Shown: positions 7,413-23,010, numbered from the stretch's first letter. The stretch: DNA of 32,000 nt from Acinetobacter wanghuae (GCF_009557235.1 NZ_CP045650.1:780001-812000), one strand, 5' to 3'. Notes: generated from the sequence alone by a model not told the origin. Made by a program: numbers and translations.

Positions 7413-8095
7413 ATGACCATCCTTGCTGTACTGTTTGACCTCGATAATACCTTAACCCACCGTGACTTAAGTGTGCAGGCATTTACCCGACATTTATGGC
7501 AATCCTATGCAGCTGACTTAGCGCATATTGATTTTGAAAAAATGACGCAGATTGTCCGTCGCATTGATAATGGGGGTTATCCCAAGAAAGAACATCTGAC
7601 CCATCCAAGCATTGGCGCATCGGTTTCCTATGCACTATTGCAAGAACTGCAATGGAAAAATCCTCCAAGTTTAGAGGAACTGTCTACCTTTTGGTTTGAA
7701 CAATGGTTTATGTGCCGTAGCCATGCCGCAAGCGCAAAGAGCTTTTGGCGCAGTTGAAAAATAAAGGCTATCAGCTTGGTATTATCTCGAACGGTGGGCA
7801 TGAGACCCGCCTGAATATTCTGAAAGGGCTTGGCTTTGCGCATTATTTTGATGAAATTATCAGTTCAGGCTTAGTCGGCGTCAGTAAGCCCAATCCTGAA
7901 ATTTTCCATCTGACGGCCAACACATTGGGCGTGGCGCCTGAACATTGTGTCTATATTGGCGATCATCCCATTAACGATATACAAGGGGCAAGTGCTGCCG
8001 GTATGCGCGCCGTTTGGATCGAAGGCTTTCATCCAGCCACCCAACCGATCGAGCGTAAGATTCAACAGTTAAGTGAGCTGTGGCAGTATTTGTAA
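7413..8095 (+). pseudogene. HAD-superfamily hydrolase (subfamily IA-like) split by frameshift(s)
   Basis: ORF 7413..7757 carries HAD motif I (LFDLDNTL). ORF 7745..8095, in another frame, carries motifs II-IV (GIISNG, SKPNPEIF, GDHPINDIQGA). The two overlap at 7745-7757. The tail of the first ORF (FMCRSHAASAKSFWRS) looks out of frame. Confidence 0.7.
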
Positions 8096-8966: not shown

Positions 8967-10016
8967 TTGTTTGATATTTTGATGATGTCTTTTGCGCTAA
9001 AAACCACGCCACCTACGATACTTGAAGTCTCACCACAGCATCCAAAGTTAAACCGTTTAATTGATGAGATCGAACAGCAAAAACAATTATTGCTTGCGTG
9101 GCAAAGTGCTAAAGATGAGATCCGCACCTATAGTCTAAAGGCACTCATACCTACATATTGTGAGCTATATAGTACCTTGTATGAACAGATGCAAACCCTT
9201 TGGAATAGCCTAAGTTGTTATGATTTAAGCAAATCAGATACGGTGGTAGTAGAAGATAAAATCCAAACCTTAGCGCGTTTACTGCAAGGTTCACATTTGT
9301 TGACTCAAAAGCAGGTCGATGAAGTGGAAAAGATGCATGCGTATTATGTGCAGGCAAACGAGTACGATAAGAAAAAAACCAAGAGGAAAAACTCAGCTAC
9401 TATTGATGAGCCTGACAATGAAACCGTTCAAGGTGGTGATGAGCTTGAAGATTGGAACAGCGATCAATATCAACAAGAACGTGAGCAAGCCAAGCTCAAA
9501 CGTCAGCAGGCTAAACAAGCCCAAGCCGAAAAGTTGGTGAATCAATCGCTGAAAACCGTCTATTTAAAAATTGCATCCATCATTCACCCTGACCGTGAGC
9601 CTGATGAATCTAAAAAAGCGGAAAAGACTGAACTTCTACAACGTGCCAATGAAGCCTATGAACAGGAAGATTTATTCTTTTTACTTAAACTTCAGCTTGA
9701 AGTGGAGCAAAGTAAGAATGGCTCAAATAAAGGTTTAAGTGCGGAGCAAGTGAAGTTTTACCAACAGGCTTTAGAAGCGCAAAGTCAGTCTTTGAAAAAG
9801 CAGATTCAGGAACTCATTGATTCACTTCTTTGGTCAACCAAAGCCAAAATTGCGGTGCAAAAATCAAAAGGTCAACTGAATATTGAGCAGTTATATAAGC
9901 AGATTGATGCGGATGTATCTGCGGTAAAGCAACAGTTAAAAGCGGAAAAGCAAAGGCTGAGTTTTATGGGGAAAGAGAGTGGGTTGGAGATGTTGTTGGA
10001 GCATCAAGTGCTTTAA
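8967..10016 (+). CDS. Coiled-coil protein with an internal J-domain-like segment
   Basis: LKTVYLKIASIIHPDREPDESKKAEKTELLQRANEAYEQ follows the J-domain pattern (helix II, HPD, helix III), with HPD at 9585-9593. The rest is Lys/Gln/Glu-rich coiled coil. The track start is a TTG, and the ATGs at 8982 and 8985 are likelier starts. Confidence 0.6.
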   Translation: MFDILMMSFALKTTPPTILEVSPQHPKLNRLIDEIEQQKQLLLAWQSAKDEIRTYSLKALIPTYCELYSTLYEQMQTLWNSLSCYDLSKSDTVVVEDKIQTLARLLQGSHLLTQKQVDEVEKMHAYYVQANEYDKKKTKRKNSATIDEPDNETVQGGDELEDWNSDQYQQEREQAKLKRQQAKQAQAEKLVNQSLKTVYLKIASIIHPDREPDESKKAEKTELLQRANEAYEQEDLFFLLKLQLEVEQSKNGSNKGLSAEQVKFYQQALEAQSQSLKKQIQELIDSLLWSTKAKIAVQKSKGQLNIEQLYKQIDADVSAVKQQLKAEKQRLSFMGKESGLEMLLEHQVL

Positions 10017-10021
10017 ACTTT

Positions 10022-10046
10022 TCTCCCTTTCCCTTTGGGAGAGGGA
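10022..10046. repeat. REP-like GGGAGA/TCTCCC palindromic element between convergent genes
   Basis: TCTCCCTTTCCCTTTGGGAGAGGGA has an inner hairpin TCCC-TTT-GGGA nested in TCCCT...AGGGA. Its arm composition matches the elements at 21682, 21735, 22981 and 28958. Confidence 0.5.
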
Positions 10047-10049
10047 TTA

Positions 10050-10724
10050 TTAGAAAACATTGCCCACCAATTCCGATAGATCTTCATCTAAAGTAATAGC
10101 CCATTTCCAAAAAGCAGAATATGCAAATTGAGGTGAGCACATAGCTTTTAATTTTTCGATTTTTAAATCAATTTCGGATTGAGCTAACGGTTCTGTAGGA
10201 AATAGCAATTCATTTTTGATTTTTTGTAGTTGAAAACTATATCTTTGAATATCTTTGATTAGTTCGCTCCGACTAATGCCTCTGATTCCAGTTGATGTAT
10301 TGTTATAGCATTCATCTAATAGCATTAGTGTAAGGTTGACAGACTGTTGGGTTGAAGGACTATTTTCTCTAACAGTTACTTTAATATCTCTATTATTTGT
10401 TAGAGGACACTCAAGTATAAGATAGTGAGATATATCATGGTTAGCTATAGAACAGTCTAATATGTTTGTATGAGTATGACTTTTAATACTGTTACAACGA
10501 CTACAACTATAGAATAAATTATTCCAATTAAATTTTTTTATTAGGTCTCCTTGGTGTGGATCGAGATGCTCAACCTGAATGTCTGAAATATTAGCTCTTT
10601 CACATAGATAACATTTCCCATGAAACATTTTTTTTAAGGTAAGCAGAACTTCCTCGGATCTATAATCTTTGTTGGTACCTGTCAGACTCTGTGGGACTGT
10701 ATTTGGTCTACTAACTGAAAACAT
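10050..10724 (-). CDS. HNH nuclease, Septu PtuB-like (TIGR02646-type pattern)
   Basis: The 224-aa protein contains KCYLCERANISDIQVEHLDPHQGDLIKKFNWNNLFYSCSRCNSIKS. This gives CxxC, then the catalytic-type H in EHLDPH, then N...N, then CxxCN..K, the HNH beta-beta-alpha-metal layout. Its ATG overlaps the upstream ATPase stop by 1 nt (TAATG at 10722-10726). The DNA is very AT-rich. Confidence 0.75.
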   Translation of the reverse strand: MFSVSRPNTVPQSLTGTNKDYRSEEVLLTLKKMFHGKCYLCERANISDIQVEHLDPHQGDLIKKFNWNNLFYSCSRCNSIKSHTHTNILDCSIANHDISHYLILECPLTNNRDIKVTVRENSPSTQQSVNLTLMLLDECYNNTSTGIRGISRSELIKDIQRYSFQLQKIKNELLFPTEPLAQSEIDLKIEKLKAMCSPQFAYSAFWKWAITLDEDLSELVGNVF

Positions 10725-11868
10725 TACTTGGACCCTTCTTGAGTAATTTTTTCGAGTTTATTTTTTGCAACAATATATTGTAATTGAGACTCAATAGAAA
10801 GTTTTGGCAAATCCATTTCTATTCTTTCTAGAGTATTTTTGATTTCCATCAAATTATCTCTATGCATATCCTGTTCGATAAATTCGACAATCAATTTAGA
10901 AATATAAAGGGTGTCATTACTTTCTGGATTAATATGAAATAGTTCTTTAATAATTGATTCATGTGAATAAAGACTCAAATCATCATCAAAAAATTCACCA
11001 CTAGAAATATCATAAACTACAGTATCATTGTTCGTTGAAGTAATAACAAAAGGTGAGTGAGTACTAACAATAAATTGTGTTTTGGGGAAAGACTTAATTA
11101 AGAATGGTAATATCTTTTTCTGTAATGAAATATGTAGATGGACATCAATTTCATCAATTATAGTTACACCTGAGAGTTCTTCTGGACTAATTTTTTCTCG
11201 TTCTGCTCTCATAAGAAGAGATGAGTAAATATAAAAAATTGCCTTAAAACCAGAAGAAAGTTGTTCAAAACTATAGTTAACATTTCGATTTCTTAAATTT
11301 ATAAGGACTTCATTTCCGTCTTTAGAAAAAGATAGTTCGATCGAATCATTTTCAAATATATTTTTTAAGTCATTTTCTACTTTAAGAAACCATTTCTGAA
11401 CTTCATTGACCATCCAAATGGTATGTCCTTTTTCTCCGGAACGATTGCTAAGAATATTGTTGATATCCTTTTTTATAGATATTAAATAAGCCTCTAAAAG
11501 ATTTGGTGGATCTGTAAGTTCTGGATTTTTAGTTAAATGCTCATAACTTTGAAACACTTTCATACTTAGTCCTTCAAGGGAAGGGACACGTGAGGAGTCA
11601 AAAAAGTTAAAAGCTATTTTTCTATTGTGAATGGGAATAAGAGCAAACTTTGTATCTTTTTGAATAATTTTATTTATATGATCAAAAATTCTATTAACTA
11701 GATTTTCTAAAAATTCAGGTGAGTAATAATGAAAATATTGTTCTAAATTTGGATCTTCAATTGTCTTAATAATATAGTCTTGTTGGTTAAGTATCGGATT
11801 ATCTCTGAAGAAATATTCTTTTTCTATCAAAAAAATATTGTAACTATTTTTCAGGATATTATTTAATT
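10724..11868 (-). pseudogene. ABC/SMC-type ATPase (Septu PtuA-like), C-terminal fragment cut off by the IS insertion
   Basis: The fragment contains the signature-like motif QLSSGF, Walker B/D-loop VTIIDEIDVHLH and H-loop FIVSTHSP. The frame stays open upstream of the track TTG start (ELNNILKNSYNIF-LIEKE...) until it hits a stop inside the IS at 11870-11872. Confidence 0.75.
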
Positions 11869-11894
11869 CTTAGATTCTCAAATGAAGTGCAACA
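11869..11894. repeat. IS left terminal inverted repeat
   Basis: Read directly from the sequence; see the IS entry above. Confidence 0.75.
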
Positions 11895-11966
11895 GAGATT
11901 AAATTTTGGAAAGAAGCAAGATGAGCTAGCATTTTGCTTCCGACCGACCAAAGTCAAAGTTGCATC

Positions 11967-12914
11967 ATGAACTATACTCATCTTACCCAAGAAGAAAGAT
12001 ATCAGATTTTTACATTGTTACGTGAAGGATTTTCTCAACGTTATATTGCTTGGAGACTGAATCGTTCACCTTCCACTATTTCTAGAGAAATCAATCGTAA
12101 TCGAGCTAGAAATGGTTATTTCGCTAAGCATGCTAGTAAACTCGCTCGAAGACGCCATTGCTCTAATCCTAAAAGAATCCCTGATGAAATATGGGCAAAT
12201 GTCATCTTTTATCTTGAACTTCAATGGAGTCCTGAACAGATTGCTTCCCGTGTTTCAGTCAGTCTGCATTCAATTTATCGCTTAATACGACAGGATAAAA
12301 ATAAGGGCGGTACTCTCTTTCATCATCTACGTTTCAGAAATCAAAGAAAGAGGAAATACGGCTCTCCTGAAACTCGTGGTCAGCTGGCTAATCGTAAAAG
12401 CATTCATGATAGACCGATTGAGATTGAACAGCGTCATCGTTTCGGTGATCTAGAGATAGATACGATTGTGGGTAAGAATCATCAGCAATCATTGGTCTCG
12501 ATTGTAGATCGTAAGACAGGTTATTTGTGGCTAAAGAAGTGTAGCTCACGTAAAGCAGAGGAAGTTTGCCAAACAACGATCAGTTTACTTGAGCCAATCA
12601 AAGATCAGCTCAAGACGATTACCGCAGATAATGGTAAGGAGTTTAGTCTGCATGAATGTGTTGCTCAAGAATTAGAAATAGACTGGTATTTCGCAGATCC
12701 TTATAGCGCTTGGCAACGAGGTACGAATGAAAATACCAACGGCTTAGTCAGACAATACATTAGAAAGGGAAGTGACTTAAATCAGTATACAGATGAATAT
12801 ATCTCAGAAATAACAGCCCGTATCAATCATCGTCCAAGAAAAAGACTCGGCTTTAAAAGTCCGAGTCAGGTATTATGGCAACAACATGGTGTTGCACTTC
12901 AAATGCTAATCTAA
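11967..12914 (+). CDS. IS30-family DDE transposase
   Basis: The probable start is the ATG at 11967 (MNYTHLTQEERYQIFTLLREG...), which opens an N-terminal HTH segment (RSPSTISREINRN). The DDE triad contexts are typical of IS30: GDLEIDTIVG, TITADNGKEF and PYSAWQRGTNENTNGLVRQY. The track ORF starts 33 nt earlier at a non-ATG codon. Confidence 0.9.
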   Translation: MNYTHLTQEERYQIFTLLREGFSQRYIAWRLNRSPSTISREINRNRARNGYFAKHASKLARRRHCSNPKRIPDEIWANVIFYLELQWSPEQIASRVSVSLHSIYRLIRQDKNKGGTLFHHLRFRNQRKRKYGSPETRGQLANRKSIHDRPIEIEQRHRFGDLEIDTIVGKNHQQSLVSIVDRKTGYLWLKKCSSRKAEEVCQTTISLLEPIKDQLKTITADNGKEFSLHECVAQELEIDWYFADPYSAWQRGTNENTNGLVRQYIRKGSDLNQYTDEYISEITARINHRPRKRLGFKSPSQVLWQQHGVALQMLI

Positions 12915-12915
12915 G
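12890..12915. repeat. IS right terminal inverted repeat (contains the transposase stop codon)
   Basis: Read directly from the sequence; see the IS entry above. Confidence 0.75.
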
Positions 12916-13225
12916 ATTTATAAATAGAGGAAAGATCAGATGCTTTTTTTCTTTGGATTATTTGCTCAATTAAATAAATGCTGTTTTCACTAAGTTTAAG
13001 AGGCTGTTGGAATTTTTCTAAAGTATATTCTAATAGTTCGATAAGTTTATTAGTGTTCTCTTTTTCAAGGTTTATGCCTAAACCAACTTTATCATTAGCT
13101 AAATGATTTCTAATTTTGTTTAAAAAGTATGTTTTTCCTGAACCATTATTCCCTGTCAGAATTAAGTTTCTACCGTGTAAAGGAATTTCATTTTTTTCGA
13201 ATAAAATAGTATCTATATGATTCAT
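12916..13225 (-). pseudogene. ABC/SMC-type ATPase (Septu PtuA-like), N-terminal fragment with Walker A
   Basis: MNHIDTILFEKNEIPLHGRNLILTGNNGSGKTYFLNKI... carries the Walker A motif GNNGSGKT. The ORF ends 2 codons into the IS-derived sequence (stop at 12911-12913). Deleting 11869-12918 (1050 nt) joins it in frame to the C-terminal fragment (...SSIYK-LNNILKNSY...), giving 483 aa. Confidence 0.75.
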
Positions 13226-13227
13226 TG

Positions 13228-13259
13228 TGAGAAATAAAGGGCTGAATAATCAGCCCTTT
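13228..13259 (-). terminator. Probable valS terminator hairpin
   Basis: AAAGGGCTGA (13236-13245) pairs with TCAGCCCTTT (13250-13259) around an ATAA loop. On the minus strand an ATTTCT tail follows, which is a weak T tract. Confidence 0.5.
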
Positions 13260-13290
13260 ATACTACAAATCAGATCAAACTAACAACACT

Positions 13291-16185
13291 TTAAAGCGCT
13301 GCAATTTGCTCCATATTCGCTTTAATCTTCGCTAACTGATCAGCAAACTCAGCAAGCTTCACTTTCTCGCCTTCAACCACAGCAGCAGGTGCTTTCGCCA
13401 CAAAACCTTCATTGGCAAGTTTAGTTGCAATTTGGTCATGTTGCTTTTGAACTTTGTCTAGGTCTTTTTGTAGACGACCCAATTCCGCTTTAGGATCAAT
13501 TAAGCCCTTCATAGGAACGAATACAGACACATGACCAACAACACTTGATGAAGACAATGGCGGTTGTTCAGCATCTGCAAGGAAAGTAATGCTTTCAACT
13601 TTTGCCAATGCTTTAAACAACGGTTCAATACGTGCGATTTGCGCTTTTTCAGCATCAGTGGTGTTTTGAAGCAGAACAGGCAACAAGCGCGCATTACCTA
13701 GACCCATCTCACCACGGATGTTACGTACCGCACCAATCAGACCTTGAAGCCATTGCATATCTGCTTCAGCTTGGTCGTTGATAAGCGCTTGGTCAGCAAC
13801 TGGGTATTGCGCCAACATAATTGTTTCGCCAACGATGTTCAGTTTCGGCGCAAGTGTTTGCCAGATTTCTTCTGTTAAGTAAGGCATTAACGGGTGAGCC
13901 AAACGTAAAGACGCTTCCATCACAGAAAGAAGCACACGACGCACTTCAGCTTTACGCTCAACCGATACATTTTCATCATTCAGAACAGGCTTAGTCAGCT
14001 CTACATACCAGTCACAGTATTCATTCCAAATGAACTCGTAAATCGCTTGTGCAGCCAAGTCTAAACGATAGGTCGCAAATGCTGTTTGCACCGCTTGTTG
14101 CGCTTTTTGTAAACGGCTCACGATCCATTGTTCAGGCAATTCCCAAAGGTCTTGACGTACTTCTTGACCAATCACTTGCTCTTCGCAATTCATCATCACG
14201 AAACGGGTTGCGTTCCAGATTTTGTTGGCAAAGTTACGGTAACCTTCAACACGTTTCATGTCGAACTTGATGTCACGACCGGTGTTAGCAAGCGCACAGA
14301 ATGTGAAACGAACGGCATCTGTACCGTAAGATTGAATACCTTCAGGGAATTCTTTACGAGTAGATTTTTCAATCTTCGCCGCTTGTTTTGGGTTCATCAA
14401 ACCTGTAGTACGTTTTTGTACTAAAGTTTCAAGATCCACACCGTCAATCAAATCTAATGGGTCAAGCACGTTACCCTTAGATTTAGACATCTTCTGACCT
14501 TCGCCATCACGTACCAAACCGTGTACATACACAGTTTTAAACGGCACTTGCGGTGTACCATCTTCATTTTTCATGAAGTGCATGGTCATCATGATCATGC
14601 GGGCAACCCAGAAGAAGATGATGTCAAAACCTGTTACAAGCACATCAGTCGGGTGGAAGGTATTTAAGAAGTAATTCTCAGCATCTTTTTTGGCATCGCC
14701 AGTCCAACCTAAAGTTGAGAATGTCCAAAGACCTGAAGAGAACCATGTATCCAATACGTCTTCATCTTGATCTAATTGAACATCAGCAGGAATGTTGTTT
14801 TTCGCACGAACTTCGTCTTCGTTACGACCAACGTAAACATTACCTTCTGCATCGTACCAAGCAGGGATACGGTGACCCCACCACAATTGACGCGAGATAC
14901 ACCAGTCTTGAATGTTGTTCATCCAAGCCATGTACATGTTGCTGTATTGCTCAGGTACAAATTTGATGTCGCCATCTTTCACGGCTTTGATTGCAGGTTC
15001 AGCAAGTGGCGCAATCTTCACATACCATTGATCCGTCAATAACGGCTCAACGATGACACCTGAACGGTCACCACGAGGTGGCTTAAGCGTATATGGCTGA
15101 ATTTGATCTAACCAACCTTCAGCTTCCGCTTGAGCAACGAGTTTTTTACGTGCTTCAAAACGCTCTAAACCAATGTAGTCACTAGGTGCAGGAATGGTTT
15201 TAGAAATTTGTTCGCCCGCTTTTGCGATATATTCAAAATCGCTCAACACTTCCGCATTTTTGTTGAAGATGTTGATGATTGGCAATTCGCAACGTTTACC
15301 CACTTCATAGTCATTGAAGTCATGTGCAGGGGTAATTTTTACACAGCCTGTACCGAATGCTTTATCGACATATTCGTCTTTAACGATTGGAACCGCACGA
15401 CCTGTAATTGGCAGGATAATATTTTTACCCACCAAGTCGGCATAGCGTTCATCATCAAGCGCAACCGCAACCGCAGTATCACCTAATAATGTTTCAGGAC
15501 GAGTGGTTGCAACAACGATGTGATCTTTACCATCGTGGGTACGAAGCGATTTATCTTCAAAGAAGTATTTGAAGTGCCAAAGCGAACCTTGTTCTTCTTT
15601 ATCAGACTCAACTTCTAAGTCAGAAAGCGCCGTTTGGAGTTTCGGATCCCAGTTTACAAGGCGTTTACCACGGTAGATCAAACCATCTTCATGCAGTTTA
15701 ACAAACACTTCTTTCACTGCGTTTGATAAACCATCATCCATGGTAAAGCGTTCACGTGACCAGTCTACAGATGAGCCTAGACGACGAATTTGGCGAGTAA
15801 TGTTACCGCCAGATTGTTCTTTCCATTCCCAAACTTTTTCGATGAACTTTTCACGACCAAGATCATGACGGCTAATGCCTTCTGCACCCAACTGACGTTC
15901 CACAACCATTTGGGTTGCAATACCTGCGTGGTCAGTCCCCGGTTGCCAAAGCGTATTTTTGCCTGACATACGGTTATAACGGGTCAACGCATCCATAATG
16001 GCATTGTTGAAACCATGACCCATGTGCAAGCTACCAGTGACGTTTGGCGGCGGAATCATAATACAAAACGATTCACCGTTTTTAGAAGGCTTGAAATAAC
16101 CACGCTCTTCCCAAGTTTGGTACCATTTTTTCTCGATCTCAGTAGGATCGTAGGTTGTCGCGATATTTTGCGCTGAATCAGTCAT
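13291..16185 (-). CDS. valS: Valine--tRNA ligase
   Basis: The 964-aa protein has the class I HIGH motif ([12 protein letters not shown]) and the KMSKS motif, plus a CP1 editing domain and the C-terminal coiled coil typical of ValRS. Confidence 0.97.
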
Positions 16186-19803: not shown

Positions 19804-21534
19804 TTATTTAATGTGTTCAGCAACATCGCTAAAGATCACACCTAAACCATGTGCACCTGCATCAGGATAGCCTAAGCTGCGATCACCGACCGTACCTGCA
19901 CGACCCATACGCGCGACAATTTCTTTAGTCGACTCTGCACCGGCAACAGCAGCAGCAGCACCAAGGACAAAGTTTTCTTTAAAGCTTTTGTCTGTGTTTG
20001 CTGACCATGAGTCTGCACATGGTACTAGAGCATCAATTAAGGTTTTATCACCCACAACAGCACCGCGACCGAATGAACGTTCACCTGTGGTTTGAATGCC
20101 TTGAACTGCCGCTTGTAGCATCTCAGCAAAATCCGCCACGCTTAGAGTGGTTTTGCCTTTAATGGCTTTACTTGCAGCACGGAATGCTGAACCCCAAATT
20201 GGACCTGACGCACCGCCACAATGTTCCATAATGATCATTGAGCAGTTCAACATAAACTCATCCATATGCTGTGCTTGGATTAAGTCTTGCCATTCACGTT
20301 TTAGCTGTTTAAAGCCTTTTGCCACGCTCATACCGAAGTCGCCGTCGCCTGCGTGAGCATCTAACTCGCAGAAAGGTACTTCATTTTTAATAATACAAGC
20401 AGACATCACATCGACCACATAACGCATATTTTCAATGCTGAACTGTTCATTGCTAATGACCGCGTGTTCAGGCTGTGTTTCCACTTCAATATTTGCGCTA
20501 CGTGCAGCTTTGCTATCTTTGGCTGCAAACTCAAATGCTAACGCAGGTGAGCCATCCATTTTAAATGCAGGGGTATTGGCTTCGGCATCTAAGTAGCCTT
20601 TAAGTTCATCATCAACCGCAAGTAATGACACCGATGCACCGTTCATGTCGATACTGGTCATGTAGTTGCCAACGAATGTACGGTAAATTTTGATCCCTTT
20701 ACGCGCCAAATGCTCGCACACATCATTGTTAAATACATACAGTTCTTGCAGTGGCGTTGTACCAAAACCATTCACCAATACCGCAACTTCCTTCAGGTCA
20801 GGACGGTCAAGGAACAAGTCATCGACAATGCGTTGAGCCAGTTCTTGCGATGGTAAGATTTTTTCACGACGGATACCCGGTTCACCATGAATACCGACGC
20901 CGTATTCCATTTCGTCATCTGCTAAGGTAAACGTTGGCGTACCTTTGGCAGGAACGGTACATGAGCTATAGGCAAAACCAAGGCTAATCACGTTATCTGC
21001 GGCTTTTTGCGCAACGGTTTTCACTTTTGCAAGGTCTAAACCTTTTGATGCTGCTGCGCCGGCAATTTTATGGACGAATACTGTGCCTGCCACACCACGA
21101 CGACCGACTGTGTATAGGCTGTCTTTAACTGCAATGTCATCTGCGACTTTGACATAGTCAACTTTAATACCGTCGTCTGTTGCTAAAGCTGCACCATTCT
21201 GGAAATTCATCATATCGCCAGAATAGTTTTTGATAATCATCAGCACGCCTTTGTCGGTTGCGACTTGGGTCAATGCTTTATAAATTTGAATTTGTGACGG
21301 TGATGCAAAGACATCGCCACACACAGCAGCATCTAACATGCCTGTGCCGACAAAGCCTGCATGTGCAGGTTCGTGACCAGAACCACCACCACTGATGAGT
21401 GCCACATTGTTGTGTTTTTCTTTGCGTGACACGATTTTATAAGATTCGTTAAATGCAAGTTCAGGATGTGCCAGCACGAAGCCTTTGCACATTTCGACAA
21501 CCAAGTTTTCAGGGTTGTTGATGAGTTTTTTCAT
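19804..21534 (-). CDS. ATP-dependent dihydroxyacetone kinase (fused DhaK + DhaL domains)
   Basis: The 576-aa protein has the N-terminal DhaK motif GGGSGHEPAHAGFVG and the C-terminal DhaL nucleotide-binding motif DAHAGDGDFG. Confidence 0.92.
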   Translation of the reverse strand: MKKLINNPENLVVEMCKGFVLAHPELAFNESYKIVSRKEKHNNVALISGGGSGHEPAHAGFVGTGMLDAAVCGDVFASPSQIQIYKALTQVATDKGVLMIIKNYSGDMMNFQNGAALATDDGIKVDYVKVADDIAVKDSLYTVGRRGVAGTVFVHKIAGAAASKGLDLAKVKTVAQKAADNVISLGFAYSSCTVPAKGTPTFTLADDEMEYGVGIHGEPGIRREKILPSQELAQRIVDDLFLDRPDLKEVAVLVNGFGTTPLQELYVFNNDVCEHLARKGIKIYRTFVGNYMTSIDMNGASVSLLAVDDELKGYLDAEANTPAFKMDGSPALAFEFAAKDSKAARSANIEVETQPEHAVISNEQFSIENMRYVVDVMSACIIKNEVPFCELDAHAGDGDFGMSVAKGFKQLKREWQDLIQAQHMDEFMLNCSMIIMEHCGGASGPIWGSAFRAASKAIKGKTTLSVADFAEMLQAAVQGIQTTGERSFGRGAVVGDKTLIDALVPCADSWSANTDKSFKENFVLGAAAAVAGAESTKEIVARMGRAGTVGDRSLGYPDAGAHGLGVIFSDVAEHIK

Positions 21535-21681
21535 GGAGGGAAACCTTCACGTGTATTTGGGAGAGTTCTAAATGTGGCTATTATCCTAGAAAGTGAGGTT
21601 TTTTGCAGAACTAAAAATGTAAAAACAGATGATTTGACGTTGAGCGGTTAGAAAAAGGGCGTTAATTTGATAAATTAAATC

Positions 21682-21702
21682 CCTCCCTTTAATAAAGGGA
21701 GG
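21682..21702. repeat. REP-like perfect palindrome CCTCCCTTTA-A-TAAAGGGAGG
   Basis: It has 10-bp arms and lies at the left edge of the AT-rich islet. It closely resembles the palindrome at 22981-23001. Confidence 0.55.
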
Positions 21703-21734
21703 AGCTGTCACGTAATTCATTTGCTACGTGGAAT

Positions 21735-21778
21735 TCCCCTCTTTTCCCTTGCGCCATATATGGCTCAGGGCTAGGGGA
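21735..21778. repeat. Long imperfect REP-like hairpin
   Basis: TCCCCT (21735-21740) pairs with AGGGGA (21773-21778), CCCT with AGGG inside that, and the centre is a perfect palindrome GCCATATATGGC (21753-21764). Confidence 0.45.
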
Positions 21779-22147
21779 GATTTAAAATAAAGGAAAATAA
21801 AAATGAAACCCTACAATAAAAACTTAAAACAAGTGTTGTGTGAGTTGCGCTAAAAATATTTTTAAGGAGTAGTACAGAATTTTCCAACTTAATAAGATTT
21901 TTATTAATACAGTTAATTGATTTTCATCTTGTAAAATAACGATTAGAAATTTTTGTAGGGATAGTAGTATGGGTTTTTTCGATATGTTGTTTTCGGGTAT
22001 TGGATCATTATTCAGTGCTGCGGTAAGTGTGGTTTCGGAAGTCGTTTCTACAGTAAAAACTTTTTTTCTGCTAAAGACGTTGTAACTAAAACCGTTAACG
22101 AAAATAAGAATAAAAAAATAGATGAAATTCATGATATTAACGATGAG

Positions 22148-22891
22148 TTGATTTATCTAAAACGTAAGGTGAAAGACTATGGTTACATCACGGAGCAACA
22201 GAAAAAAAGAATAAATGACCTGGAGGAGAAGCAAACATATATTCGAGATGAAATTAATCAGAGTCGCCAAATTTTATCTGCTGACAAGTTTCAATCAAAT
22301 GTGCAGAACATTGAGAAAGTTGACATAGGACATGAAACAACACATGTTCTGCAATGGAATGCCTTTGCGGATACTATGGCAAAGAAATGCCCTAAATGTT
22401 CTAGACCTATGAAATTACAGTGGGCTAGAGAACTTTCATATGTAAGTCCAACAGATTTTTACTGGGGATGTACAGGTTGGTATTTTCAAAGTAATCAAAT
22501 AAAAGGATGTAAATTTACTCAAAGGCTAACTAAAGATGACCTTTCATTGATGACCGATGTCTCTGCACCTGAGTTTGAATTATCTTCACAAGATTTTAAT
22601 ATCATTCTTCATGATCCAAATACATCTGAAAGTATTCTTGAAAGAATGGATGATCTTCAAGCTGATCTGAGATCAAAGAAAAAAGGGATTGATATAGTTT
22701 GCTGTCCAATCCATGCAGAACCTATGGTTCTACAGAAAAAAAGAAATGGTGTGGGGCTTTTAGACCAATATTATTTAAGATGTGCTCATTGGGCTCAAAA
22801 TGACCAAGGTTGCAACTATATTGAAAAATTAAAATCAGGATCTCAACTTGCGGCTCTATTAAAAAATCAAACAGGTATAGGAATTTTATAA
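22148..22891 (+). CDS. Coiled-coil protein with two topoisomerase-type (zf-C4_Topoisom-like) zinc ribbons
   Basis: The first ribbon is CPKCSRPMKLQ...FYWGCTGWYFQSNQIKGCKFTQ. The second is a degenerate copy, CCPIHAEPMVLQ...YYLRCAHWAQNDQGCNYIE. The track start is a TTG with a poor RBS, and the frame is open upstream to 21968 (see the frameshift finding). Confidence 0.6.
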   Translation: MIYLKRKVKDYGYITEQQKKRINDLEEKQTYIRDEINQSRQILSADKFQSNVQNIEKVDIGHETTHVLQWNAFADTMAKKCPKCSRPMKLQWARELSYVSPTDFYWGCTGWYFQSNQIKGCKFTQRLTKDDLSLMTDVSAPEFELSSQDFNIILHDPNTSESILERMDDLQADLRSKKKGIDIVCCPIHAEPMVLQKKRNGVGLLDQYYLRCAHWAQNDQGCNYIEKLKSGSQLAALLKNQTGIGIL

Positions 22892-22948
22892 TTTAAATTC
22901 TGAATTGGACTGTTGCATCTAGAATTAATTTTAAATTTTACTGAATTA

Positions 22949-22977
22949 AAAAATCCCCTCAATCGAGGGGATTTTTT
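22949..22977. terminator. Bidirectional rho-independent terminator (zinc-ribbon gene and metH)
   Basis: ATCCCCTC (22953-22960) pairs with GAGGGGAT (22965-22972) around an AATC loop. An A run lies upstream and a T6 run downstream. Confidence 0.75.
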
Positions 22978-22980
22978 ATT

Positions 22981-23010
22981 CCCTCCTTTATTAAAGGAGG
23001 GTTAGGGAGG
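22981..23010. repeat. REP-like three-arm element
   Basis: A perfect palindrome CCCTCCTTTA-T-TAAAGGAGGG (22981-23001) is followed by TTA and a third arm GGGAGG. It sits just downstream of the metH stop. Confidence 0.55.

What the first reader, a model, noticed from the sequence alone, without database searches (positions are those of the whole stretch)
10050..13225. Septu-like two-gene ATPase + HNH nuclease module in an AT-rich insertion next to valS
Two minus-strand genes overlap by 1 nt (TAATG). The upstream gene, once reconstructed, is a 483-aa ABC/SMC-type ATPase. It has Walker A GNNGSGKT, signature-like LSSGF, Walker B IIDEIDVHLH and H-loop STHSP. The downstream gene is an intact 224-aa HNH protein (CYLCE..VEHLDPH..NWNNLFYSCSRCNSIK). 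An ABC-ATPase followed by a small HNH nuclease of the TIGR02646 pattern is the defining architecture of the Septu (PtuA/PtuB) anti-phage system, and of the PtuAB effectors attached to some retrons. Hand-counted 60-nt samples inside the ATPase gene are 23-25% GC, against 37% in a valS sample and 57% in a metH sample, which fits horizontal acquisition. I recognised nothing in the central ~250 aa of the ATPase or the C-terminal ~130 aa of the HNH protein, so this could be a divergent or unclassified subtype.
Basis: partly seen in the sequence, partly recalled or inferred. Interest (0 to 1): 0.8.

Follow-up and report, generated by a model that had tools for sequence, protein, structure and literature searches.

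The report
IS-broken Septu anti-phage operon beside valS
This is an ordinary two-gene Septu (PtuA ATPase + PtuB HNH nuclease) phage-defence operon in Acinetobacter wanghuae; a mobile element has split its ATPase gene, and it sits in a chromosomal slot next to valS that holds a different defence system in almost every related species.

Summary
ptuB (10050-10724, minus strand) is intact. ptuA is split by a 1047-bp IS30-family element (11869-12915, 3-bp ATT duplication). Removing it restores a 483-aa ORF that aligns without gaps to an intact 482-aa homologue in the same position in another Acinetobacter.

PADLOC profiles match both proteins full-length (PtuA E=1e-98, PtuB E=9e-80). The predicted structures hit only solved PtuA and PtuB chains. 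There is no reverse transcriptase or retron RNA, so this is stand-alone (type I) Septu. As it stands, the system is most likely inactive.

- The gap between valS and the neighbouring conserved gene is a defence hotspot across Acinetobacter. It holds Septu variants, DUF4297-HerA, PifA, OLD/AriA-like, HEC-06, SIR2, caspase-like and HEPN-like genes, or nothing (421 bp).
- Among seven Septu pairs at this site, the PtuA C-terminal extension tracks PtuB (rho 0.89) but not the rest of PtuA (rho -0.12). This points to repeated recombination at the conserved Walker B/H-loop stretch.

Interest is low to moderate.

The parts
10050..10724 (-). ptuB: intact 224-aa HNH nuclease (annotated GFH30_03610 in A. 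wanghuae)
   Evidence: ORF. PADLOC PtuB PDLC00331 E=9e-80, residues 1-223 on profile positions 1-218 of 222. AlphaFold pLDDT 93.5. Foldseek top 9 hits are all PtuB chains. Exact sequence match in A. wanghuae.
10482..10613 (-). HNH / zinc-finger core of PtuB (C38-x2-C41 ... E52-H53 ... H57 ... N69 ... C74-x2-C77-N78 ... K81)
   Evidence: Translation. Nearly all of these residues are invariant in 59 homologues; E52 and H57 are conserved in at least 90%.
10053..10349 (-). PtuB helical C-terminal domain, the predicted docking domain for the PtuA C-terminal extension
   Evidence: Helices 126-141, 152-174, 182-195, 203-220 in the model. The alignment to solved PtuB chains is full-length. The role of this domain is taken from PMC12819146.
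10724..11868 (-). ptuA 3' fragment (codons ~104-483 plus stop). It carries the signature motif, Walker B, the H-loop and the C-terminal extension. NCBI annotates it as a 368/377-aa 'AAA family ATPase'.
   Evidence: PADLOC PDLC00297 E=1.2e-86 over residues 183-481.
10727..10936 (-). PtuA C-terminal extension (residues 414-483, three predicted helices). This module is co-inherited with ptuB.
   Evidence: Helices 420-435, 439-454 and 461-481 follow a low-confidence linker at 403-417. Identity to P0001/P0002/P0003 drops from 89-96% to 19-39% at residue 414, while P0010 is 76% identical here. The DNA crossover is shown.
11051..11260 (-). Conserved ATPase core: signature LSSGF (11246-11260), Walker B/D-loop TIIDEID (11144-11164), H-loop STHSP (11051-11065). 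This is the likely recombination hinge.
   Evidence: Translation. Invariant columns S308, G309, D341, E342, D344, H373. Identity is 65-95% across all seven hotspot Septu pairs.
11869..12915 (+). IS30-family insertion sequence interrupting ptuA (transposase ORF 11934-12914; inverted repeats 11869-11894 and 12890-12915)
   Evidence: NCBIfam NF033563 transpos_IS30, 290 bits against a cut-off of 80. Pfam HTH_38 + rve. Inverted repeats. 92-93% identical copies on Acinetobacter plasmids. Single copy in the window.
11866..11868 (.). Target-site duplication ATT (left copy)
12916..12918 (.). Target-site duplication ATT (right copy)
12916..13225 (-). ptuA 5' fragment (codons 1-103, with Walker A GNNGSGKT at 13130-13153). 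Annotated GFH30_03625, 104 aa.
13234..13261 (.). Perfect 12-bp hairpin between the valS stop codon and the ptuA start codon. It is probably the valS terminator and marks the valS-side edge of the variable region.
   Evidence: Inverted repeat I10; sequence. The same sequence is read through as 'YKGLIIQPFI' in ORFs of L012, L014 and L020. The terminator role is inferred; the consensus terminator scan did not call it.
10017..13290 (.). Whole variable, AT-rich hotspot interval between the conserved 349-aa gene (8967-10016) and valS (13291-16185)
   Evidence: Homology to the empty site L013 ends close to the two stop codons. The gap is 421 bp to 5.3 kb with different cargo in the 18 Acinetobacter loci where both flanking genes are present.

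Best explanation
The locus is a stand-alone (type I) Septu anti-phage operon, ptuA-ptuB, in the chromosome of Acinetobacter wanghuae. It lies in a variable defence hotspot between valS and a conserved 349-aa gene. ptuA has been split after codon 103 by an IS30-family insertion.

Before the insertion, the operon would have worked as characterised Septu systems do (this is inferred by homology). PtuA, an ABC/SMC-type ATPase with a helical insertion, oligomerises. Pairs of its three-helix C-terminal extensions clamp the helical C-terminal domain of the PtuB HNH nuclease. ATP-bound PtuA holds the nuclease in check. Phage infection releases or activates PtuB, which cuts nucleic acid (DNA nicking or tRNA-Tyr cleavage in the studied homologues) and stops phage replication.

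In this genome Walker A is separated from the rest of the ATPase, so the system is most likely non-functional. The insertion looks recent: the duplication is intact, the transposase ORF is intact, there is no other lesion in ptuA, and ptuB keeps every invariant residue.

This operon is also a mosaic. Its PtuA body belongs to one lineage, and its PtuA C-terminal extension plus PtuB belong to another.
For: Shown here:
- Gene structure, IS boundaries, target duplication and the restored 483-aa ORF.
- Gapless alignment at 85% identity to an intact allele in the order valS-ptuA-ptuB.
- Full-length PADLOC matches to PtuA (E=1.2e-98) and PtuB (E=9e-80).
- AAA_21 and AAA_15 score above the Pfam gathering thresholds.
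- By sequence, the PDB hits are PtuA of retrons Ec83/Ec78 and of E. coli Septu 8ee4.
- By fold, only PtuB and PtuA chains are found.
- All catalytic motifs are invariant across about 60 homologues of each protein.
- There is no Rfam RNA in the window, and no ORF in the interval other than ptuA, ptuB and the IS transposase.
- Septu pairs sit at the same site in L003, L004, L012, L017, L020, L021, L024/L025 and L026.
- The mosaic structure is shown.

Taken from the literature:
- E. coli Septu forms a 6:2 PtuA:PtuB complex; ATP inhibits the nuclease; it nicks plasmid DNA (PMC12640716).
- The PtuB C-terminal domain and a pair of PtuA C-terminal extensions form a nine-helix bundle (PMC12819146).
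- Septu EcB88 cleaves the tRNA-Tyr variable loop and needs Walker A/B and the HNH residues (PMC13096335).
Against: - No functional data exist for this subfamily. Its PtuB is only 13-19% identical to solved PtuBs, and the PtuA model is of moderate confidence (pLDDT 75.8, TM 0.2-0.4 to solved chains). Substrate and trigger therefore cannot be transferred with confidence.
- The curated NCBIfam models (PtuA NF041760, PtuB NF041761, TIGR02646) and the Pfam HNH model all score below their cut-offs.
- The claim of inactivity is inferred from the split gene, not measured. A 368-aa PtuA fragment with an intact C-terminal extension could still be made together with PtuB.
- No convincing promoter was found. 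The promoter scan found fewer sites than in shuffled sequence.
Confidence: 0.9

Rival explanations
1. The IS-disrupted locus is still active in a changed form. The IS left end supplies an outward promoter, and a truncated PtuA (about 368 aa: no Walker A, but with signature, Walker B, H-loop and C-terminal extension) is made together with PtuB. This would act as a deregulated or differently regulated nuclease module.
For: - A -35-like TTGAGA inside the IS left end, 17 nt from TATCCT in the flank, faces ptuA'-ptuB.
- A TTG-initiated 368-aa ORF continues to the native stop and overlaps ptuB as in the intact operon.
- The C-terminal extension and ptuB are undamaged.
Against: - The promoter match is weak (9 of 12). 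Such matches are rarer here than in shuffled sequence (4 found against 14.6 expected).
- Walker A mutants abolish Septu defence in the studied homologue (PMC13096335).
- No other genome shows a natural PtuA starting at this position: the homologues with near-full query coverage are about 470-490 aa.
Confidence: 0.06
2. It is the effector half of a type I-A retron (Septu type II, like Retron-Eco7/Ec78 or Eco4/Ec83) that has lost its reverse transcriptase and ncRNA.
For: The best PDB sequence hits are retron-associated PtuA and PtuB. There are weak hits to NF041760, NF041761 and TIGR02646 ('retron system putative HNH endonuclease').
Against: - No RT ORF and no Rfam RNA are present in the interval or the window.
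- None of the eight related loci at this site carries an RT next to ptuAB.
- Retron PtuA scores only 79.6 bits against a cut-off of 500, and the match starts at profile position 63. The N-terminal extension that contacts the RT is therefore absent (PMC12819146).
- PDB hits favour retrons partly because far more retron PtuAB structures than stand-alone ones have been solved.
Confidence: 0.02
3. It belongs to a different ATPase-nuclease defence family (OLD, Gabija GajA, PARIS AriA, PD-T4-4, HEC-01, PDC-M01) rather than Septu.
For: All of these share the AAA_15/AAA_21 ABC-ATPase fold. AriA appears at the bottom of the PDB sequence hits (E=0.008). Genuine OLD/AriA-like genes occupy the same hotspot in other species (L001, L015).
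Against: - 24 of the top 25 PADLOC families for the ATPase are PtuA, and the best covers the whole protein.
- There is no TOPRIM domain.
- The partner is an HNH protein matching PtuB end to end.
- The top 50 fold hits are all PtuA.
Confidence: 0.02

Closest known systems
Stand-alone (type I) Septu PtuA/PtuB, as represented by PADLOC clusters PDLC00268 (PtuA) and PDLC00331 (PtuB)
   Same: Both proteins give full-length profile matches (E=1e-98 and 9e-80). The gene order and the overlapping stop/start are the same, no RT is present, and all ATPase and HNH motifs are conserved.
   Different: ptuA is interrupted by an IS30-family element, so this copy is probably dead. No member of these particular clusters has been studied experimentally, as far as the searched literature shows.
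E. coli Septu (EcSeptu; PDB 8EE4, 8EE7, 8EEA, 8SUX) and Septu EcB88
   Same: Same architecture and fold (Foldseek prob 1.00 to 8eea PtuA and PtuB chains). Same predicted docking arrangement: a three-helix PtuA C-terminal extension with a helical PtuB C-terminal domain.
   Different: Sequence identity is very low (PtuA 13-17%, PtuB 13%). PtuB gives no sequence-level hit to the 8EE7/8EEA PtuB at E<=1. The substrate (DNA nicking or tRNA-Tyr cleavage) and the trigger cannot be assumed.
Retron type I-A effectors (Retron-Eco7/Ec78 and Eco4/Ec83 PtuAB; 9NNB, 9KJX, 9E8Z, 9N69)
   Same: These are the closest solved structures for both proteins (PtuB TM 0.57-0.66 over the full length). The docking principle between the PtuA extension and the PtuB C-terminal domain is shared (PMC12819146).
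   Different: No RT, ncRNA or msDNA is present. The retron-specific N-terminal extension of PtuA is absent. The NCBIfam equivalog cut-offs are missed by a wide margin.
Core defence hotspots flanked by conserved genes (P. aeruginosa cDHS, PMC10250203; 21 A. baumannii hotspots, PMC11723918)
   Same: A fixed chromosomal slot between two core genes, AT-rich, occupied by different defence systems or left empty in different genomes. No single obvious mobilising element is present.
   Different: It was seen here across species of the genus rather than across strains of one species. I could not establish whether the valS site is one of the published A. baumannii hotspots. valS is not mentioned in the main text, and the supplement is not held.

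Membership tests
Septu type I (stand-alone PtuAB) | PtuA: ABC/SMC-type ATPase that matches PtuA profiles better than other defence ATPases | tested here: met
   PADLOC PDLC00268 E=1.2e-98, residues 10-480. 24 of the top 25 families are PtuA. AAA_21 (58.2 bits against 27) and AAA_15 (37.2 against 32.1). Foldseek top 50 are all PtuA.
Septu type I (stand-alone PtuAB) | ATPase catalytic motifs present (Walker A, signature, Walker B/D-loop, H-loop) | tested here: met
   GNNGSGKT, LSSGF, IIDEID and STHSP are present in the reconstructed protein and invariant in 61 homologues.
Septu type I (stand-alone PtuAB) | Uninterrupted ptuA gene (needed for a functional system) | tested here: not met
   ptuA is split after codon 103 by a 1047-bp IS30-family element. 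Both available A. wanghuae records carry the fragments. This affects function in this genome, not family identity.
Septu type I (stand-alone PtuAB) | PtuB: small HNH nuclease matching PtuB profiles, with the HNH/zinc-finger residues | tested here: met
   PDLC00331 E=9e-80, full-length. C38/C41/H53/N69/C74/C77/N78 are invariant. Fold matches PtuB chains only. Pfam HNH is below its gathering score (17.7 against 21.4).
Septu type I (stand-alone PtuAB) | ptuA immediately upstream of ptuB on the same strand, with the pair conserved in other genomes | tested here: met
   1-nt TAATG overlap. The same pair occurs in L003, L012, L020, L021, L024/L025 and L026, and a distinct Septu cluster in L017.
Septu type I (stand-alone PtuAB) | PtuA C-terminal extension and PtuB helical C-terminal domain able to form the docking bundle | tested here: inconclusive
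   The models show a three-helix extension (residues 420-481) and a helical PtuB C-terminal domain. Extension identity and PtuB identity co-vary across loci (rho 0.89). No complex was modelled or measured.
Septu type I (stand-alone PtuAB) | Confers phage resistance that depends on the ATPase and HNH residues | not testable with these tools
   Needs cloning of the reconstructed operon and phage challenge.
Retron type I-A / Septu type II | Adjacent reverse transcriptase and msr-msd ncRNA | tested here: not met
   The interval holds only ptuA, ptuB and the IS transposase. There are no Rfam matches in the whole window. None of the related loci has an RT next to ptuAB.
Retron type I-A / Septu type II | Scores above the NCBIfam equivalog cut-offs for retron Ec78 PtuA and PtuB, and carries the PtuA N-terminal extension | tested here: not met
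   NF041760 scores 79.6 bits against 500, and the match starts at profile position 63. NF041761 scores 26.1 against 150.
TIGR02646 (retron system putative HNH endonuclease subfamily) | Score at or above the curated cut-off | tested here: not met
   37.8 bits against a cut-off of 52.15, E=1.8e-9, residues 21-100 only. Several homologues are labelled TIGR02646 by their sources.
OLD / Gabija GajA / PARIS AriA | ATPase fused or paired with a TOPRIM nuclease, with the best profile match to those families | tested here: not met
   No TOPRIM hit. None of these families is in the top 25 PADLOC hits. AriA appears only at E=0.008 in the PDB search.
IS30 family insertion sequence | Single DDE transposase matching IS30, terminal inverted repeats, short target duplication | tested here: met
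   NF033563 scores 290 bits against 80. HTH_38 + rve. Inverted repeats match at 22 of 26 positions, with a 3-bp ATT duplication.

The most novel reading that the evidence does not exclude
Septu diversifies by cassette re-assortment inside a fixed chromosomal hotspot. The variable PtuA body (residues ~1-300, presumably carrying sensing specificity) and the effector cassette (PtuA C-terminal extension + PtuB) are exchanged independently. Homologous recombination in the highly conserved Walker B/H-loop stretch of ptuA would be the mechanism. The valS 3' gap would then be a genus-wide Acinetobacter defence hotspot where this happens repeatedly. I found no report of this for stand-alone Septu in the searched literature, but the search was limited.
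Probability: 0.55. Interest if true: 0.4.

Novelty: new member of a known kind. Interest (0 to 1): 0.25.

Why it matters
For the locus itself, little is at stake. It is a recognisable Septu operon that current defence-finding profiles already cover, and it is broken in this strain. Public records annotate its parts only as 'AAA family ATPase', 'hypothetical protein' and 'HNH endonuclease'.

The comparative context is of more use:
- It gives a clean natural example of IS-mediated loss of a defence system, with an exactly reconstructable ancestor.
- It identifies a valS-adjacent hotspot across Acinetobacter whose unexplained cargo could be mined for new defence genes. Examples are a DUF6414 protein, a caspase-like protein with a small predicted membrane protein, a HEPN-like protein, and a 317-aa protein with no family match.
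- It offers natural domain-swap evidence that the PtuA C-terminal extension and PtuB form one co-evolving unit. This fits the cryo-EM interface and suggests how to build chimeric Septu systems.

Tried and rejected
- **Rfam scan** of the whole window at gathering thresholds: nothing, so no retron ncRNA.
- **Promoter/terminator scan** of 9900-13400: 4 promoter-like sites against 14.6 expected and no terminator call. It is uninformative, and I do not rely on the hybrid IS promoter idea.
- **Plasmid and phage collections:** the ptuAB DNA and the PtuB protein have no meaningful match (one 114-nt, 76% match in an E. coli record; no phage match). The locus is therefore not obviously carried by a known plasmid or phage.
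- **The look-up of encoding contigs** for the 368-aa fragment P0004: not on record.
- **Li et al. 2024** (the Septu structure paper, PMC12318543) is not held. Its findings are cited second-hand from PMC12640716 and PMC12819146.
- **A. baumannii hotspot paper:** valS is not mentioned, and no supplement is held. Whether this hotspot is already catalogued remains open.
- **OLD, Gabija, PARIS and retron readings** were considered and rejected on profile, domain and context evidence.
- **An alternative IS boundary** (11864-12920, the 31-nt repeat arms) was rejected. Only removal of 1050 bp (IS plus one ATT) restores the frame and matches the intact homologue.


Full report
**1. What is in the sequence**

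The interval 10017-13290 lies between a conserved 349-aa gene (8967-10016, + strand) and valS (13291-16185, - strand). It contains three coding features:
- an intact 224-aa ORF at 10050-10724 (-);
- an ATPase ORF in two pieces on the same strand, 368 aa at 10724-11830 and 104 aa at 12911-13225;
- between those pieces, a 326-aa ORF on the + strand (11934-12914).

The + strand ORF is an IS30-family transposase. NCBIfam NF033563 scores 290 bits against a cut-off of 80, and Pfam finds HTH_38 plus rve. The element spans 11869-12915 (1047 bp). Its terminal inverted repeats match at 22 of 26 positions, and it is flanked by a 3-bp ATT duplication.

Deleting the element and one ATT copy restores a single 483-aa ORF. 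This reconstruction is not just plausible. It aligns without a gap, at 85% identity, to an intact 482-aa protein (P0001), including across the junction (...SSIYKLNNILKNSYN...).

The ATPase stop codon and the start of the downstream gene overlap by one base, TAATG.

GC content is 26-27% in the ATPase gene and 33% in the small gene, against 44% in valS and 41% for the window. The contrast is real.

Exact protein matches identify the source as Acinetobacter wanghuae. There the pieces are annotated as 'AAA family ATPase', 'hypothetical protein' and 'HNH endonuclease'.

**2. What it is**

- **PADLOC profiles.** They match both proteins from end to end. PtuA cluster PDLC00268 gives E=1.2e-98 (residues 10-480 on profile positions 17-409 of 411). 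PtuB cluster PDLC00331 gives E=9e-80 (residues 1-223 on positions 1-218 of 222). Of the top 25 ATPase hits, 24 are PtuA and one is the retron I-A ATPase. OLD, GajA and AriA are absent.
- **Pfam and NCBIfam.** Pfam AAA_21 and AAA_15 pass their gathering scores, while the generic HNH models fall just short. The curated NCBIfam models built on retron Ec78 PtuA and PtuB, and TIGR02646, hit but score far below their cut-offs.
- **Solved structures by sequence.** These are PtuA of retrons Ec83/Ec78 and E. coli Septu 8EE4, and weakly the retron I-A PtuB.
- **Predicted structures.** An AlphaFold model of the small protein is confident (pLDDT 93.5). Its nine significant Foldseek hits in the PDB are all PtuB chains aligned over the full length, including 8eea_G of E. 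coli Septu. The PtuA model is moderate (pLDDT 75.8), but its top 50 PDB hits are all PtuA chains.
- **Conserved residues.** Across 59-61 homologues, the Walker A, signature, Walker B/D-loop and H-loop residues of PtuA are invariant. So are the CxxC...H...N...CxxC-N residues of PtuB.
- **No retron parts.** There is no reverse transcriptase ORF in the interval and no Rfam match anywhere in the window.

The locus is therefore a stand-alone (type I) Septu operon.

The middle of PtuA is the helical insertion in the ABC-ATPase head (helices 51-171 and 223-274 in the model). The C-terminal ~100 residues of PtuB form the helical domain that docks on PtuA (PMC12819146). I see no basis for calling this a new subtype.

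**3. Context: a defence hotspot**

I fetched the locus around homologues of the 349-aa gene from 23 genome contigs. In the 18 Acinetobacter loci where both flanking genes are present, valS is 91-98% identical at the protein level. The gap between the two genes varies from 421 bp (L013, effectively empty) to 5.3 kb, and is always AT-rich (27-35% GC against 36-44% in the flanks). Homology between the window and the empty site stops close to the two stop codons.

The cargo differs almost every time:

| Locus | Cargo in the gap |
|---|---|
| L003, L004, L012, L020, L021 | divergent Septu pairs |
| L017 | a second Septu cluster |
| L007 | DUF4297-HerA |
| L009 | PifA |
| L001, L015 | OLD/AriA-like ATPases |
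| L010 | HEC-06 (DUF262-type) |
| L002 | a PDC-M29-like pair |
| L006 | a SIR2 protein |
| L005, L014 | a DUF6414 protein |
| L019 | a caspase-like protein with a small predicted membrane protein |
| L016 | a HEPN-like protein |
| L008 | a 317-aa protein with no family match |

A small DUF559 gene is a frequent co-resident.

Two further IS-free Septu loci at the same site were recovered through the closest proteins:
- L024/L025, from an Acinetobacter metagenome-assembled genome: valS, ptuA (482 aa), ptuB (223 aa), DUF559.
- L026, Acinetobacter sp. CIP-A165: valS, ptuA (475 aa), ptuB (224 aa), then the conserved neighbouring gene.

The ptuAB DNA and protein are not found on catalogued plasmids or phages. 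This kind of hotspot has been described for P. aeruginosa and A. baumannii (PMC10250203, PMC11723918). I could not determine whether this particular site has been listed.

**4. A mosaic operon**

The closest PtuA relatives (P0001, P0002, P0003) are 89-96% identical to the window protein over residues 1-413 (one 100-residue segment falls to 79-81% in P0002 and P0003). Over residues 414-483 they are only 19-39% identical. The PtuB paired with P0001 is only 52% identical.

Conversely, the closest PtuB (P0122, 86% identical) is paired in L026 with a PtuA (P0010) that shows a different pattern. It is 30-34% identical over residues 1-300, 75% over 301-413 and 76% over 414-483.

At the DNA level, the window is 90-98% identical to L025 through most of ptuA. 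That is higher than in the adjacent valS (about 85%). Identity then drops to 50-65% from about ptuA codon 400 onward, and this is where identity to L026 rises to 78-93%.

| Comparison among the seven Septu pairs at this hotspot | Spearman rho |
|---|---|
| PtuA C-terminal extension identity vs PtuB identity | 0.89 |
| PtuA body identity vs PtuB identity | -0.22 |
| PtuA body identity vs extension identity | -0.12 |

The pairwise values are not independent, so the nominal p-value should not be taken literally. There are four clearly discordant pairs:

| Pair | PtuA body % | C-terminal extension % | PtuB % |
|---|---|---|---|
| window / L025 | 92 | 39 | 51 |
| window / L026 | 28 | 76 | 86 |
| L003 / L012 | 17 | 81 | 82 |
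| L020 / L025 | 23 | 72 | 91 |

Reciprocal discordance of this kind cannot come from rate differences alone. It indicates recombination. The segment 301-413 (signature, Walker B, H-loop) is 65-95% identical in every comparison and is the obvious substrate for it.

The breakpoint coincides with the low-confidence linker (residues 403-417) that precedes three predicted helices (420-481). This fits the cryo-EM finding that two three-helix PtuA C-terminal extensions and three PtuB helices form a nine-helix bundle (PMC12819146). The extension plus PtuB therefore behaves as one heritable cassette. That inference comes from seven loci and should be tested on a larger set.

**5. How it most likely works**

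*Shown here:* family identity, intact catalytic residues, operon structure, and the disruption.

*Inferred from characterised homologues:*
- PtuA oligomers hold PtuB through the docking bundle.
- ATP binding restrains the nuclease.
- Infection activates PtuB, which nicks DNA (E. coli Septu) or cleaves the tRNA-Tyr variable loop (Septu EcB88, Retron-Eco7), arresting phage replication.
- Walker A/B and HNH mutations abolish defence (PMC12640716; PMC13096335; PMC12819146).

Which substrate and which trigger apply to this distant subfamily is unknown.

*In this genome:* the insertion separates Walker A (13130-13153) from the rest of the ATPase, so the system is most likely inactive. The insertion appears recent. 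The duplication and the transposase ORF are intact, there is no second lesion in ptuA, and ptuB retains every invariant residue. Both available A. wanghuae records carry the split gene.

A residual activity of a truncated PtuA with PtuB, driven from the IS end, cannot be excluded. It rests only on a weak promoter-like match.

**6. Verdict**

The hint of a new subtype is not. This is a new, IS-inactivated member of a known defence family, sitting in a hotspot of a known kind.

The modest added value lies in two things: the genus-wide valS hotspot, with several unclassified cargo genes, and the evidence that the PtuA C-terminal extension and PtuB are re-assorted as a unit against different PtuA bodies.

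Noticed in passing
window 10017-13290; loci L001-L021, L024-L026: The gap between valS and the conserved 349-aa gene is a variable, AT-rich defence hotspot across Acinetobacter species. It holds Septu variants, DUF4297-HerA, PifA, OLD/AriA-like ATPases, HEC-06, a PDC-M29-like pair or SIR2, or is empty (421 bp in L013).
   Followed up: yes
window 10727-10936 and 10050-10724; L003, L012, L020, L021, L025, L026: The PtuA C-terminal extension and PtuB are co-inherited and re-assorted against different PtuA bodies. The recombination hinge lies in the conserved signature/Walker B/H-loop segment.
   Followed up: yes
L005 11717-12670, L014 11685-12695, L008 11735-12688, L016 11621-12745, L019 11652-12919: Hotspot cargo with no PADLOC match: a DUF6414 protein (L005, L014), a 317-aa acidic protein with no family (L008), a HEPN-like 374-aa protein (L016), and a small predicted membrane protein plus a caspase-like (Peptidase_C14) protein (L019). 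These are candidate uncharacterised defence genes.
   Followed up: partly
L003 12412-12717, L005 11246-11614, L006, L009, L014, L016, L017, L019, L020, L024/L025 10226-10624: A small DUF559 (Vsr-like endonuclease fold) gene recurs in the hotspot next to very different defence cargo. It is absent from the window. Its role is unknown; it may be a hotspot resident, a marker or a recombination aid.
   Followed up: partly
L001 11129-12313 and L003 11135-12319: A 394-aa paralogue of the conserved 349-aa flanking gene (30-37% identity in two segments) lies inside the hotspot in two species.
   Followed up: no
It does contain an HPD tripeptide (…IIHPDREPDE…) in a helical, charged context, so the label is unverified rather than refuted.
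   Followed up: partly
window 7413-8095: A HAD-family hydrolase gene is split into two overlapping ORFs (7413-7757 and 7745-8095) by a frameshift near 7715-7745. It is a probable pseudogene or a sequencing error.
   Followed up: partly
window 21500-23000: A second low-GC stretch (32-35% against about 44% in the flanks) between the dihydroxyacetone kinase gene and metH. It contains a 247-aa ORF (22148-22891) with only a weak zinc-ribbon (Zn_ribbon_recom) hit, and may be another small acquired island.
   Followed up: no
window 13226-13290: The ptuA start codon lies only 8 nt after a perfect 12-bp hairpin that follows valS. There is no recognisable Shine-Dalgarno sequence and no room for a promoter. 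This suggests expression by read-through from valS or from a promoter inside the valS 3' end. The hairpin sequence is conserved in other species at this site.
   Followed up: partly
window 11869-12915: The IS30-family element has only 92-93% identical, gapped relatives on three Acinetobacter plasmids and none in the related chromosomal loci. It may be an unnamed IS, but ISfinder could not be consulted.
   Followed up: partly
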